Assembly (NCBI GenBank): GCA_964016885.1
Contig: OZ024756.1
Span: 12,462,001-12,526,000, forward strand
Direction of reading: 5' to 3'
From: Eledone cirrhosa
Lineage: Eukaryota
Length of the DNA: 64,000 nucleotides
Part shown: in pieces, positions 7,501-46,500 of the stretch
Numbering within the stretch: position 1 is the first letter of the stretch
How the letters are laid out: each line of letters starts with the position of its first letter
Notes under the pieces: generated by a model
Database searches by the model: none
Seen by the model: the letters and a program-made list of their open reading frames with translations, nothing else
What the model was told of the DNA's origin: nothing
Program-made: the position numbers and the translations under genes

Positions 7501-10500
7501 TTGATGGATGTGAATCCGAAATATATAGGGACAATTAAATCTCTCCCAAGGTAACTCTCTCTCGTGTTGTTATTTTTATTTTTATCCTTTATGCTCTTTT
7601 CTTCATTCCTCTACACGTCTTATACACGCCACGCATCTCAACGTACACCCACTTACATCTCTCTCTCCACCACCGGATCTTGTTACCCGGAGATTTACCC
7701 ATTTGCATTGTCGAGGCTTCCAAACGACTTAAAGATATTTATATATATATATATATATATATATATATATATATATATAACCAAAGATTAATATAGTTTG
7801 TTGATTAATCAACGAATACAATTTTACAATAGATTAGAAGCACTGCCAATACTGAAATTGAATAATCAAAGCCGTAGCGGTATGTCACATATCAAATCTT
7901 ATATTATGTCTGATGAAAACGTACTCAAACACTATTGTACCTTTGAAATATGTATAATAAAATATATATTTTGATTATGAGAATATTTTTCATTTATTTA
8001 CATTTTGAATTATATATATATATACATAAAAGAAATATCAACACAAACGGTACAGTATATGGAAGGAATATATTAGTTTAACGCTTTAAATAGCTGGAAG
8101 AGGGTCTTAACGTTTTAGATGCAAGTCCTTCATCAGAAGAAAGAATGAAAAATTAGAAAGATTGAGGGGACGGTCAGGGCAGAATTGGAAAAAAATGTTT
8201 TAGAGAAAAATAACAGGTCCATTTATGTTGGAAAACTGTTGGTGTTGGCATTTTGTGTATGATATATATTTTAGAAAAGTGGATGATGGAGCATGCCGAT
8301 CTGATATACTTTTACCTAGATCAATTTATTTTTTATTGTTTGCTGTACTGTATTTGTTTTCTATGTCAAAGCACACTGGTAAAGTGCTTTTGGCAATAAT
8401 CATATTTTTGCAATGTCAATTTTTTGCCACCATGATCCCCCGTACAATGGTCAGACCTGGGTTACCTCCTCTTTGATGTGACATGTGCTACTAGAGGGCT
8501 TACTGTTACCTTCACTTGTGACTTACAGTGCTGCTACACCATTTTTATCTTTCCTTAACAGGCAAACTCCCACTTCTCTATGTGTAACTGCCTCTATGTG
8601 TGCATTATGTGTGTGAGTGTGAGTGCCTGTGTGTATGTGTGAGTGTGTGTATGTATGTGTATATATGCATGTGTGTGTGTGTGTGTGTATGTGTGTGTGT
8701 ATGTGCATGTGTGTATATATACATGTGTGTGTGTGTATGTCTGTATGTATGCATGTGTATGTGTATGAATGTGTGTGTATGTATATGTATGTATGTATGC
8801 ATGTGCATGTGTGTGTCTGCGTATGTATACATGTGTATGTATGCATGTGTGTATGTATATGTGTGTGTATGTATGTATGTATGTATGTATGTATGTATGT
8901 ATGTGTGTGTGTGTGTGTGTGTGTGTGTATGTATGTATGTGTGTGTGTGTGTGTATGTATGTGTGTGTACGTATGCATGTATGCATGTATTCCAGAAAAC
9001 TCACACTTAATCAGGTTGTTGTAGCTGTCATCCTCACTGCTTGAGTCCATCATATCATCCAGATCATCACCATCATCACCATCACCAACATCATCAACAT
9101 CACCAACAACATCATCATCATCATCAATGGCATCAACAGCATTCAATTCCTGGTCCAAATCAGGGTGAAAGGTCACAAGTCTTGACCCATTCACCTGACC
9201 CAAATATGTCTGAAGAAGTAACAAAACAAAACATAGCTATATTGTATTGTATACTACAAAATATACAACAACACCATATAACAACACATAACAACATTGA
9301 GATTATCCTTTTAGCATTTAAACCCGCCATATCCGGCCAGAATTCTCTCACCTCTTTCTGCTCAAACCAGCCACTCATACTGATGTTAAAGTATTGTTCT
9401 CAAAATATATAATATCAAAATCTTATAGATTTGATATTATGTGAGGTAATTATAAAGACTTTACTGTGAAAATACAACAGTAAATATAGAGTAATGTAAA
9501 TGGTAAATGGTTCAATATATATATATGCCACAACACTGGGCTATAAAACTATACATATATACAACAGTGGGGTATGTAACTATATATACACCAGAACACA
9601 GGGCTGGCAATTATACACACAAATATATATATATATATATATATATATATATATATATATATATATATATAAATAAACTATAATATAGTAAGGTGCGCAG
9701 GACTGCGTACGGCTTATATTTTTTTATCCCATTAGTAAAATAAGTTGCATTACTTTGAATAAATAATGAATGAATATTACATAATTTATCTACTAAATTT
9801 CGTGGCTGTTCATTAAATATATTTTGTTTATTTAAAGATTCACTTCTTTAAAATTTCTGAAATGTCAACACTTCCGTTTGGCCATCGCTTAAATAAACAT
9901 ACTAATTTTCTCCTAATGCAGTTTATATTTTAATGTATCATGGATTACGTTACTGATTAAATAAAACAGTCTAACACAGTCTTTGTTCAATTTCTATGTA
10001 TTATATATTGTCAATTACGATTTTATTTGATGTATATACCTGCGTATAATATCAATATACACACTATACACGCTAGCAGAAAACCACCCTTCGGGTGGTT
10101 TTCTGCTAGTATATATAAGGAAAAGAAATCGAAAAGGCAACTGGAGTTTTTTAAGAATATTTACTTATTTCTTTTACCAGTTTCCCAGGTCTTATGCTTT
10201 TCAAACGTAAAATTGAGAAGCCATTTCTATATTAAAAATTTATACTCTGCTATGTATTGAGTACCTTACTGTAGTTACTCCTGATTGAACCCAGAATACA
10301 CACACACACACACACATACATATCTATATATAACACAAGACTGACACAATTATACACATCTTAACTATATATACACACCACAACAACTATATATACACAG
10401 GACCGACACAGCAATACACACAGAAAACACCAATGTCCTTACAGTTTCAATATTTTCATCTATTTTCTTCTTTTGTTTCAACCAGGAAGGTTTAGTCTGT

Positions 10501-43500: not shown

Positions 43501-46500
43501 ATATATATATATATATATATATATATATATATATATGTATATATATATATATATATATATATATATATATGTATATACTCTTTAAAACAACAGAAGGCCA
43601 GACTGGAAAATTTACTTTAGAATTTATATATATATATATACACATATATATATATATATAAGTCAGCTCGAAAGTGACACAGAGGCGACTGAGGTTAGCC
43701 GGACATGCTCACCAACATTCAGAATTGACACTGCACTCAGTGGTCCTGTGGGAGCCCCTACATGGACACACTAGAAGAGGGAGACCGCGATTGACATATG
43801 CTGATGCCCTAAGGACAGACACTGGTCTCTGGGAGACACAGAACATGGCGGCGGTGATGAGGGACAGAGACTGTTGGAGAGAACTTGTACATGGATCTTC
43901 GGAATTTTACCAGCCCTAGATACATAGATATATATTTATGAGAGATAGATGGAAAGATGGTACATACATGTCATATGTACCCTACTGATAAGAAAGAGGG
44001 TACACAATGTTATATATACCATAATGAGAAGGAATAGGGCACATACATGCTATATGTACCCTACTAAGCATAAACAGGGTACATACATGCTATATGTACC
44101 TTACTAAGCACAAGCAGGGTACATACATGATATACGTAACTTACTGAACACAAACAGGGTACATACATGCTATATGTACCCTACTGAGCATAAACAGGTT
44201 ACATACATGCTATATGTACCTTACTGAGCATAAACAGGGTACATACATGATATACGTAACTTACTGAACACAAACAGGGTTCATACATGCTATATGTACC
44301 TTACTGAGCATAAACAGGGTACATACATGCTATGTACCCTTCTGAACATAAACAAGGTGCATACATGATATACGTAACTTACTGAACACAAACAGGGTAC
44401 ATACATGCTATATGTACCCTACTGAGCATAAACAGGTTACATACATGCTATATGTACCTTACTGAGCATAAACAGGGTACATACATGATATACGTAACTT
44501 ACTGAACACAAACAGGGTACATACATGCTATATGTACCTTACTGAGCATAAACAGGGTACATACATGCTATATGTACCTTACTGAGCATAAACAGGGTAC
44601 ATACATGCTATGTACCCTTCTGAACATAAACAAGGTGCATACATACTACATGTATCCTACTTCCTTCAATTAAAGGGTTTTGATAGTTAACCCTTTAGCA
44701 TTTAAACTGGTTGTATCTGGCCAGAATTTTCTCACTTCTTTCTGTCCAAACAAGCCGTTCATACTGATGTTAAGGTATTGTTCTCAAAATAAATAATATC
44801 AAAATCTCATAGATTCCATATTACGTGAGATAATGTGAGGTTAAGCGTTTACCATGAAAATACAATAGTATATATAGAGTAATGTAAATGGTTAAGATCA
44901 CATGACCCAGCCAAAGGGACACAAGTGTTTTGGCAATTTTAGTAAAAAAAACAAACAAACAAAAAGTAAACAATAACTCCTGGCTTACCTTTTGATTTAG
45001 ATTCTGTAAAATCTTTAGCTTCTCTTTTTCAAAATTGTTTTGGTTCTCAGACTGTAACTTTGTCAGTTGATCCTCAAGTTCCTGTTGAGCTGATCTTTAA
45101 CAGAGACGAGATTGACACAGTATTAATGGCATATAATGAATGGGTGGATAGATGGAATTAAAGACATAGCTGTACTTGATAGAACTAAAGGCAGGACATA
45201 TGATACAACTGTAGCAAGCTACTTTCCTCTGGCGCATTGATACCCTTTCCGTGCGCTGTTTGCAGGTTCAGCCAATCGCTAGCAGCGTAGGGAAATGTAT
45301 CTCAACTTCCGCCCAGAGGGAGAAATTCCCGCTTCTTTCGATAAACTCTTTCTCTTGCAGTTAGACACCGTTAAGGTAAACACCTCTTGAATTCATTCCT
45401 CAAGCATAAACAATATGTAACAACAAAACATCAATACGGGCCTGGCCAGCGCCTCAGCCAGTTAACCTTCTTAAACTCTTGATTTGTTTATTCATTTCTT
45501 TTGGCATGCCAGCTAAACCTTTGTAATTGGTTTGTAAATAAATTATATGTAAAAACATTAACCATCTCGCCAATTGCAGCCCTGAGCGCCTCTTTGATCT
45601 CCATGTGTCTAACACACGTGGACATGCCTACAAGATCAGAAAACAGCACAGCTCCCATGACTTTCGTAGACATTTTTTCATGCTCCGAGTTGCTGAAGCA
45701 TGGAACAAACTGCATGCGTCGGTTGTTGGCTGCCGAGACACTGCATCCTTTAAGACACTCATGCTTCCCGAAATACGCCAAAACTACACCTGATGTACCC
45801 CTTCCATACACATGCACACGTGTGTATCATGACTCGTGCATTGTTCATTTTGCTGATGTTTGTGCATTGCCCTATGTACTGTACATGTGACTTTTTTGAT
45901 GAGTTGTGGTGCACCTGGGCACTGTACACAATATTTCATTATTGTTATTATTATTATATCATGACTCATACACTGTTCATTTTCCTGACATTTGTACATT
46001 ATTCTATGTACTATACATGCACCTTTGATGAGTTGTAGTGCACCTGAGCACTGTACACAATAATTTCATTATTATTATTATATCATAAAGTCTTATGATG
46101 CTATTTACCGCAACATTGCCTTTAACTGCTTCACTGGTGACTTCTATCAATACAAATTACATAATACAAATATTAACACTCTCACATATATCTTAACATT
46201 CACACATATATATCTCTATGTTAAACAACTTCTAAACAACCAAGGATATGGTGTGTTACACTCAAAATATTAGCTGTACTTGATAGACTAAAGACAGAAC
46301 ATATGATACAACCAAGGATATGGTGTGTTACACTCAAAATATTAGCTGTACTTGATAGACTAAAGACAGGACATATGATACAACCAAGGATATGGTGTGT
46401 TACAAACAATATATTAGCTGTACTTGATAGACGAAAGACAGGACATATGATACAACCAAGGATATGGTGTGTTACACTCAAAATATTAGCTGTACTTGAT

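What the first reader, a model, noticed from the sequence alone, without database searches (positions are those of the whole stretch)
7780..43630. Short hammerhead-ribozyme cassettes sitting in (TA)n microsatellites
Seen: CTGATGA-stemII-GAAA motifs with a pairing stem I and a near-palindromic stem III at 7902(+), 37743(-), 42858(+), 43140(-) and 43371(+). Decayed copies occur at 8105(-) and 37924(-), with a lone GAAACGCGTC at 7442(-). They lie in cassettes of a few hundred bp abutting (TA)n runs, often on both sides, with no RT ORF. At least two sequence families are present (GAAATATGTATA and GAAACGTT). Known: minimal type I hammerheads mark Penelope-like pLTRs and retrozymes, and can cleave as dimers. 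Inference: these are non-autonomous, TA-targeting ribozyme retroelements inside the introns of a ciliary gene. The minus-strand copies are in pre-mRNA sense and could cleave it.
Basis: partly seen in the sequence, partly recalled or inferred. Interest (0 to 1): 0.72.

Follow-up and report, generated by a model that had tools for sequence, protein, structure and literature searches.

The report
Penelope retroelement ends carrying hammerheads
The hammerhead self-cutting-RNA motifs are in the sequence, but they are the cut-short tail ends of several families of a known jumping gene (Penelope-like elements) that sit in TA repeats tens of thousands of times in this genome, and they are predicted to be largely unable to cut the host gene's RNA.

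Summary
Observation confirmed. There are five intact type I hammerhead cores against 0.08 expected in shuffles, and the stems covary across genomic relatives. Two exact patterns match 54,514 and 4,780 times genome-wide, with 0 for the controls.

The cassettes are not one class of small retrozyme. Walking upstream in other copies links them to longer elements:
- 43045-43475 and 7780-8010: Hydra-clade Penelope-like elements (PLEs).
- 8025-8292 and 37643-37878: a Neptune-type PLE.
- 7414-7739: a Nematis-like PLE; its 'GAAACGCGTC' is antisense and not a hammerhead.
- 42703-42990: the only one from an ORF-less parent (about 1.9 kb).

They are 5'-truncated pLTR ends, often with the textbook inverted copy and tail. 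Hydra elements with hammerheads and (TA)n targets are published, including one from octopus.

Cutting of the host pre-mRNA looks unlikely. Three cores are antisense, one is predicted to be fully paired to its inverted arm (P=0.999), and one needs a dimer partner. The gene is on the minus strand; 'ciliary' is unconfirmed. This scan reported the same thing before on other DNA. Side result: the tail lies at exactly one end in 22 of 22 two-ended insertions.

The parts
7414..7739 (+). Family D: 3' end (pLTR) of a C-terminal-endonuclease PLE, Nematis-like by eye, with a short inverted tail remnant at 7414-7426; no hammerhead; GAAACGCGTC (7442-7451) is on its antisense strand; TA runs at 7392-7413 and 7740-7779
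   Evidence: 98% identical to the end of L166, which has a 546-aa frame with RVT_1 (E 7e-10) and GIY-YIG (E 0.003) 340 bp upstream on the same strand
7780..8010 (+). Family A2 (Hydra clade): inverted tail at about 7780-7844, then a 5'-truncated pLTR; hammerhead core 7910-7916, stem II 7917-7944, predicted cut after 7956 (AUA)
   Evidence: The cassette lies downstream of a Hydra-type frame on the same strand in 8 of 10 loci, and positions 1-65 match in the opposite orientation there
8025..8292 (-). Family B (Neptune-type) 3' end; hammerhead at 8136 with G12 changed to A, predicted inactive
   Evidence: 82% identical over 277 bp to the end of a Neptune-type copy; sequence
37643..37878 (-). Family B (Neptune-type) 3' end; intact minimal hammerhead, core 37774-37768, 4-nt stem III ACGU, GUU site, predicted cut after 37747; in pre-mRNA sense; TA run 37593-37642
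   Evidence: 91% identical to the end of a Neptune-type copy; the cassette lies downstream of the RT hit on the same strand in 9 of 11 loci; fold
37915..37977 (-). Older, decayed B-like hammerhead; both core boxes and the stem III palindrome are broken
   Evidence: 81% identical to 37733-37795; sequence
42703..42990 (+). Family C: 5'-truncated end of an ORF-less unit of about 1.9 kb with Hydra-like ends; hammerhead core 42861, long stem II, predicted cut after 42925; TA runs 42687-42702 and 42991-43044
   Evidence: Full units have pLTR, tail, body, pLTR, with no PLE protein match
43045..43221 (-). Family A (Hydra clade): inverted 5' arm made of a tail (43045-43099, with an internal deletion) plus 122 bp of pLTR; hammerhead core 43196, predicted cut after 43148; in pre-mRNA sense
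   Evidence: 99% inverted match to 43354-43475; mapped on the full element L110
43217..43475 (+). Family A (Hydra clade): direct 5'-truncated 3' end without tail; hammerhead core 43379, predicted cut after 43427 (AUA); TA runs 43476-43569
   Evidence: 96% identical over 269 bp to the 3' end of L110, which has pLTR, a 743-aa frame and a second pLTR
43578..43629 (-). Second, inverted copy of the last 52 bp of the family C end, facing the first one across the A insertion; no hammerhead
   Evidence: 98-100% identical to 42939-42996

Best explanation
The cassettes are the hammerhead-bearing 3' ends (pseudo-LTRs) of four families of Penelope-like retroelements plus one end without a hammerhead, left in TA microsatellites by insertions that likely stopped early, and they are predicted to be mostly inert passengers in this gene's introns. 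Shown: the ends continue into RT plus GIY-YIG frames in other copies (A, A2, B, D) or into an ORF-less 1.9-kb body (C). Also shown: 3' ends are fixed and abut TA, 5' ends vary, and many copies carry an inverted arm. Inferred mechanism: the element's GIY-YIG endonuclease nicks both strands of a (TA)n run. Reverse transcription then starts at two fixed internal sites on a read-through RNA, the pLTR end and the tail end (91 nt apart in family A), one from each nicked strand. The two cDNAs join early, which gives a short direct end plus an inverted arm. Family C would borrow a Hydra enzyme in trans. The hammerhead's likely job lies in the parent's tandem transcript, as a dimer or with protein help. 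Every 3' end extends past the cut site, so the templates were uncut at that hammerhead, or religated.
For: Family A: 10 of 11 long loci show a 695-751-aa open frame with the cassette downstream on the same strand; the 11th frame was hidden by my low-complexity filter. The L111 frame has RWR, DKT, YRDD, CxCx5C, a GIY-YIG without the internal CxxC, then CxxC and CxH. These are the Hydra-clade features in PMC8557442 section 11. Atlas neighbours at 0.96-0.98 carry GIY-YIG, RVT_1 or HTH_animal. A2: 8 of 10 loci. B: 9 of 11 loci, with DKG, YIDD, CX4CxxC and CxxC inside GIY-YIG; by eye closest to Neptune1_Ap in the paper's alignment. D. TA next to the 3' end: A 30 of 30; B 26 of 30 (30 of 30 with CA); A2 18 of 20; D 19 of 20; C 18 of 25; background 4-14%. 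Covariation in 121 distinct rows picked without a pairing filter: stem II pairs 1-3, 336 of 363 paired (shuffle mean 246, max 267); stem I pairs 1-4, 437 of 484 (mean 385, max 400). Tail at exactly one end: 14 of 14 insertions (16 rows, two pairs being the same insertion) plus 8 of 8 parsed among 13 long loci. PMC4209133 already reports that most PLE hammerheads are scattered single motifs or close opposite-strand pairs. PMC11167929 shows both strands nicked and extended, two RT starts defining the tail, and hammerhead mutants not affecting insertion in vitro.
Against: No cleavage, expression or insertion assay was done. Pfam does not recognise the family A frame at significance. Its predicted model is poor (pLDDT 44) and matches RT palms only weakly (best E 7e-4). 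Clade names for B and D rest on motifs and on comparison by eye, not on a tree. Family B hammerheads are nearly invariant, so covariation within B is not shown. The covariation rows are related, so the shuffle overstates support. The genomic copies examined are the best-scoring 20-30 of 40 scored, not a random sample. No enzyme donor for C was identified.
Confidence: 0.9

Rival explanations
1. They are dedicated short non-autonomous ribozyme retroelements (retrozyme-like) that move as units of a few hundred bases.
For: All 20 best A2 matches share both ends and have TA at or near each side. Family C has no ORF. No RT lies beside the cassettes in the window. Animal retrozymes derive from PLE pLTRs (bioRxiv 10.64898/2026.07.22.740005).
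Against: The A2 uniformity is built into the query: its first 65 nt are an inverted tail, the junctions differ between copies, and longer copies run into a Hydra frame. 5' ends of A, B, C and D vary from tens of bases to kilobases. No tandem array of complete hammerhead units was seen. C's parent is 1.9 kb, not 290 bp.
Confidence: 0.07
2. The pre-mRNA-sense hammerheads cut the host gene's introns and affect its expression.
For: 43196(-) and 37774(-) have intact cores and lie in the sense of the minus-strand gene. Taken alone, 43196 can form stems I (8 bp) and II (9 bp). Thousands of family B copies could supply partners in trans.
Against: In context 43196 pairs with the arm at 43354-43475 with mean probability 0.999, and that arm is transcribed first. 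37774 has a 4-nt stem III that cannot close in one molecule, a GUU site and a decayed neighbour. In PMC4209133 a single minimal PLE hammerhead showed no cleavage and dimers were slow. At about 18 pattern hits per Mb, a few per 64 kb is background.
Confidence: 0.06
3. The motifs are chance matches in AT-rich DNA.
For: Rfam lists no hammerhead in the window. The active monomer folds are 5-21 kcal/mol above the minimum-energy folds; for 42861 my script built only 3 bp of stem II, which overstates that gap.
Against: 5 found against 0.08 expected; 54,514 and 4,780 exact matches against 0 controls; compensatory changes.
Confidence: 0.01

Closest known systems
Hydra-clade PLEs, including Hydra-1_Obim of Octopus bimaculoides (Craig et al. 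2021, PMC8557442)
   Same: C-terminal GIY-YIG, RW[K/R], DKT, YRDD, CxCx5C, no CCHH; type I hammerhead near the 3' end; (TA)n target; tandem and inverted pLTRs with an optional tail.
   Different: Families A and A2 are other families. Their stem III is AUAUGUAU, against ACCAATGGT listed for Hydra-1_Obim. Family A is about 4 kb with a 3' UTR of about 1.7 kb, whereas the paper gives generally under 3 kb. The tail is 91 nt, against 30-40. The paper found 'a small number' of extra families; here one pattern has 54,514 hits.
Neptune-clade PLEs (Neptune1_Ap in the alignment of PMC8557442) and minimal PLE hammerheads (Cervera and de la Pena 2014, PMC4209133)
   Same: Family B has DKG, YIDD, the CX2-5CxxC linker and CxxC inside GIY-YIG. 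Its hammerhead has the bulged base after A9, G10.1-C11.1, a 4-bp stem I and a palindromic ACGU without loop 3.
   Different: GUU rather than GUC at the site in most copies; 3' ends join TA or CA runs; no fully intact frame was seen among 150 hits that I could tie to this end.
Non-LTR retrozymes of animals (bioRxiv 10.64898/2026.07.22.740005; PMC7229834, listing only)
   Same: Non-coding, type I hammerhead, PLE-related; family C is non-coding.
   Different: Retrozymes are tandem repeats with a hammerhead in each unit. These are dispersed truncated ends with inverted arms, and C's unit is about 1.9 kb.
Poseidon element PAc of Anolis, studied in vitro (Frangieh et al. 2024, PMC11167929)
   Same: Two fixed 3' ends that define a tail; AT-rich target; hammerhead upstream of the RT start, so the template is uncut.
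   Different: In PAc the RT start is not homologous to the target. In family A both 3' ends are followed in the template by TATAT or ATATAT, which match (TA)n.

Membership tests
Type I hammerhead (PLE minimal type) | CUGANGA, GAAA and UH in type I order with stems I and II | tested here: met
   Five motifs; compensatory pairs in 121 rows of the AUAUGUAU type; not shown within family B
Type I hammerhead (PLE minimal type) | Short palindromic stem III suited to dimers | tested here: met
   Self-pairing 8/8, 8/8, 8/8, 6/8 and 4/4
Type I hammerhead (PLE minimal type) | Self-cleavage | not testable with these tools
   Needs in vitro transcription
EN+ Penelope-like elements | Single ORF with RT and C-terminal GIY-YIG upstream of the cassette | tested here: met
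   A, A2, B, D. Holds for the parents; the window copies are truncated.
EN+ Penelope-like elements | pLTRs in tandem or inverted, 5' truncation, optional tail at one end | tested here: met
   L110, L124, L125 have pLTR-ORF-pLTR; one tail in 22 of 22 two-ended insertions
EN+ Penelope-like elements | Target-site duplication | tested here: inconclusive
   Hidden in the TA runs
Hydra clade (families A, A2) | RWK-like motif, DKT, no GxKF, CxCx5C linker, no CCHH, CxxC and CxH in EN | tested here: met
   All found in L111 (RWR for RWK), checked against PMC8557442 section 11. The A2-related frame L202 is 57% identical.
Hydra clade (families A, A2) | Placement on an RT tree with reference Hydra elements | not tested
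   Reference sequences were seen only in a paper supplement and were compared by eye
Hydra clade (families A, A2) | Insertion in (TA)n | tested here: met
   30 of 30 and 18 of 20
Neptune clade (family B) | DKG, CX2-5CxxC linker, CxxC inside GIY-YIG | tested here: met
   Nematis shares the linker, so the clade name rests on comparison by eye with Neptune1_Ap.
Nematis clade (family D) | CX2-5CxxC linker | tested here: inconclusive
   A cysteine-rich linker is present but does not fit the pattern; resemblance to Nematis rows by eye only
Non-LTR retrozymes | Tandem repeats with at least two consecutive complete hammerhead units | tested here: not met
   The only same-strand neighbours in the window are 37774 and a decayed older copy
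Non-LTR retrozymes | No coding capacity in the parent | tested here: not met
   Not met for A, A2, B, D. Met for C only: no PLE match at E<1 in two full units; none at E<=0.001 in 14 of 15 loci, and the 15th is on the opposite strand.
Non-LTR retrozymes | Abundant circular RNA | not testable with these tools
   No RNA run could be laid

The most novel reading that the evidence does not exclude
Octopod Hydra elements insert by coupled two-ended priming. The two nicked strands of a (TA)n run prime at two different fixed RNA sites, never the same one (tail at exactly one end in 22 of 22 insertions). In family A each site is followed by a 5-6 nt UA run that could base-pair with the target end, telomerase-style, unlike the homology-free start reported for Poseidon. 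An ORF-less 1.9-kb parasite (family C) uses the same two-site rule, and young, near-intact family A copies make this testable in vitro.
Probability: 0.3. Interest if true: 0.55.

Novelty: new member of a known kind. Interest (0 to 1): 0.22.

Why it matters
As found, this is ordinary transposon debris. It is useful mainly for annotating a very large PLE expansion: one hammerhead pattern occurs about 18 times per Mb, in a clade first described from few families. It also warns that hammerheads in introns of this genome are background. The possibly useful part is mechanistic. PLE insertion is still poorly understood, and family A has young copies with open frames of 743-751 aa, two sharply defined priming sites, a strict one-tail rule and a non-coding parasite. 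Together these give a concrete in vitro test of two-ended priming and of whether the RNA pairs with the TA target.

Tried and rejected
Searches that gave nothing useful:
- Rfam at E<=5: no hammerhead, only microsatellite noise.
- Sequencing runs: no RNA holder listed, four unlaid rows of unknown kind from one study; read laying was not used.
- Host gene identity: Pfam on 14 pieces, best E 0.007, below cut-off; Atlas under 0.9; an exon scan of 120 kb of flanks gave no recognisable domain.
- Family A frame: no significant Pfam hit and no PDB sequence hit with the six-sequence profile. The AlphaFold model has pLDDT 44 and matches RT palms only weakly, so it carries little weight.
- Arkhipova 2006 is not held.
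- Paper searches for an octopus hammerhead study gave only PMC8557442 as relevant; subscription journals are not covered.

Ideas considered and rejected:
- Family D as a Naiad: its endonuclease is C-terminal.
- A2 as a fixed 230-bp element.
- A Hydra frame fragment after a C tail in L205 as C's own ORF: it is separated by a TA run, and other C units continue differently.
- TA homology at the priming sites as a general rule: 5-6 nt in A, only 2 nt before a mismatch in its 88% sister, partial in A2, absent in C.
- Two-molecule cofolding did not give the active dimer as the minimum-energy fold. Nearest-neighbour models do not score the core, so I drew nothing from it.

The one-tail count in D was 6 clear and 2 ambiguous of 22 loci; the rest had one end only. 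Not included in the 22.
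Full report
Observation. The window is 40.5% GC with 18 TA runs of six or more units. The cited motifs are all present. A generic type I hammerhead descriptor finds five motifs, with cores at 7910(+), 42861(+), 43379(+), 43196(-) and 37774(-). In 200 shuffles that keep dinucleotides in 500-bp blocks, the mean was 0.08 and the maximum 1. 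The copies at 8136(-) and 37915-37977(-) have broken cores. Rfam did not detect any of them. The genome is 3.0 Gb. I take it to be an octopod from recalled SINE-like repeats and from earlier notes; I did not test this.

They are more than chance and under structural constraint. One exact pattern for the AUAUGUAU type matches 27,386 + 27,128 times in the genome, and one for the ACGU type 2,418 + 2,362 times; the reversed controls give 0. The first pattern alone predicts about 1.2 hits per 64 kb, and by sequence the window has three. I collected 121 distinct motifs from the fetched loci on core and stem III letters only. Stem II pairs 1-3 are paired in 336 of 363 cells (shuffle mean 246, max 267) and stem I pairs 1-4 in 437 of 484 (mean 385, max 400). 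There are A-U/G-C/U-A swaps and a conserved mismatch at stem II position 4 (C-C in 93 of 121). The rows are related, so this is support, not a probability. Family B is nearly invariant and shows no covariation of its own.

Family A (43045-43475). In 30 copies the 3' end is fixed and the 5' end varies. Two copies led upstream through a long 3' UTR into a frame with RT and GIY-YIG motifs. A protein search returned 127 scored matches, many with open frames of 743-753 aa. Ten of 11 long loci show a 695-751-aa frame with the cassette downstream on the same strand, three of them as pLTR-ORF-pLTR at 90-97% identity or near it; the 11th frame was hidden by my filter. The L111 frame has RWR, DKT, YRDD, CxCx5C, no CxxC inside the GIY-YIG, then CxxC and CxH. 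These are the diagnostic features of the Hydra clade, described with canonical hammerheads and (TA)n targets, and including Hydra-1_Obim from octopus (PMC8557442). Atlas neighbours carry GIY-YIG, RVT_1 and HTH_animal. Pfam and PDB sequence searches were blank. A poor model matched RT palms weakly.

Families A2, B and D. A2 (7780-8010) is a Hydra sister: its cassette follows a Hydra-type frame in 8 of 10 loci, and its first 65 nt are an inverted tail. Family B (8025-8292, 37643-37878) follows an RT hit on the same strand in 9 of 11 loci. Its parent has DKG, YIDD, CX4CxxC and CxxC inside GIY-YIG, and by eye it is closest to Neptune1_Ap in the paper's alignment.

Family C (42703-42990) is different. 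Its parent runs pLTR, tail of about 150 nt, body, pLTR, about 1.9 kb per unit, and starts with a Hydra-like 5' stretch. Two full units have no stop-free run over 115 codons and no PLE match at E<1. Fourteen of 15 loci with its 5' part have no PLE match, and the 15th match is on the other strand. Copies are 70-90% alike, so it is old. It is a non-autonomous PLE derivative, and the window holds only its last 288 bp.

Target and anatomy. TA follows the 3' end in 30 of 30 A copies, 26 of 30 B (30 of 30 with CA), 18 of 20 A2, 19 of 20 D and 18 of 25 C, against 4-14% at background positions. Each set includes the window's own copy and is the best-scoring part of 40 scored hits. Family A has two 3' ends 91 nt apart. 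Where an inverted 5' arm was found, exactly one end carried the tail in 16 of 16 rows, which are 14 insertions; 14 of the 30 rows had no inverted end within 1.5 kb. The same held in 8 of 8 parsed long loci of 13 examined; two had no inverted end and three were not parsed. Inverted arms with a tail often at only one end are described qualitatively (PMC8557442 Fig. 2 legend; PMC3846280). In tandem copies both ends are followed by TATAT or ATATAT; this does not hold well in the other families.

How it likely works. Shown: fixed 3' ends in TA, variable 5' ends, inverted arms, coding or non-coding parents. Inferred, by analogy with Poseidon in vitro (PMC11167929): the endonuclease nicks both strands, reverse transcription starts at two internal RNA sites, one per strand, and early joining leaves a short direct end plus an inverted arm. 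All 3' ends lie 48-103 nt past the predicted cut, so the template was uncut there or religated. In that paper hammerhead mutants did not affect insertion. The ribozyme likely processes tandem parent transcripts as a dimer or with protein help (PMC4209133).

The host gene. Eight candidate exons with AG/GT ends lie on the minus strand between 51096 and 3697 and encode coiled-coil-like sequence; the set may be incomplete. The cassettes fall between 10443 and 3793, and between 44989 and 34449. I could not name the gene. Three intact cores are antisense. The 43196 core is predicted to pair with the arm at 43354-43475 with mean probability 0.999, and that arm is made first. The 43379 core is likewise locked on the + strand (0.98). 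The 37774 core cannot close stem III alone and has only a decayed neighbour. Cutting of the pre-mRNA is not excluded but is unlikely.

What I saw of each paper. PMC8557442: abstract, passages, sections 3 and 11, and four look-ups in its supplement. PMC4209133 and PMC11167929: parts 1-2 of 4. bioRxiv 10.64898/2026.07.22.740005: part 1 of 5; its supplements are closed and list the four invertebrates sampled. PMC3846280 and PMC13282606: passages. PMC7229834: listing only. Searches found no paper that counts octopus hammerheads or states a strict one-tail rule; subscription journals were not searched.

Verdict. The motifs are real and well conserved, but they are new families of a known kind: ends of Hydra and Neptune-type PLEs plus one non-coding derivative. 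Earlier notes of this scan reached the same reading on other DNA and pointed me to the Hydra clade, which I then tested. Interest 0.22.

Noticed in passing
window 43578-43629 and 42939-42990: Two 3' ends of family C, 98-100% identical and sharing a rare terminal variant, face each other across the family A insertion. Similar inward-facing short copies across a TA run occur in L140 and L022/L023. Possibly fold-back copying at the self-complementary TA run.
   Followed up: partly
window 9658-10110 (+): Piece of the A2 family's 3' UTR next to the TA run at 9624-9671, without pLTR or hammerhead.
   Followed up: partly
window 36453-36749 (+): N-terminal fragment of a Neptune-type PLE frame, 48% identical to the frame in L201.
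   Followed up: partly
window 17612-17767 (-): A further degraded family C 3' piece, 74% identical to L245.
   Followed up: no
window 7675-7730 (+): Family D, young (97-99% identical copies), has no canonical hammerhead at its end. It has CCGG-ATCT ... CCGG-AGAT, which could form a pseudoknot, and a hairpin with a degenerate core-like TTGTCGA-GG...CC-AAAC. Rfam found nothing.
   Followed up: no
stem II of the AUAUGUAU-type hammerheads (e.g. window 7920/7941, 43389/43412): A mismatch at the fourth position of stem II is kept across families (C-C in 93 of 121, paired in 1 of 121); it may be a tertiary contact or protein site.
   Followed up: partly
loci L001-L223: The descriptor found 209 distinct hits in 223 loci, including more than ten further hammerhead families with other palindromic stems III (ACUAGU, AUGCGCAU, ACCGUACGGU, AGGACU).
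   Followed up: no
window 42700-42761: A hairpin of about 60 bp at the 5' end of the family C cassette, shared in part by other C copies.
   Followed up: no
window 2407-2464 (-) and 52645-52702 (-): Partial tRNA-like Rfam hits just under threshold, probably heads of tRNA-derived SINEs.
   Followed up: no
window 22157-23028 (-), 53818-55609 (-): Fragments of a LINE (RTE-like by recall) in the introns.
   Followed up: no
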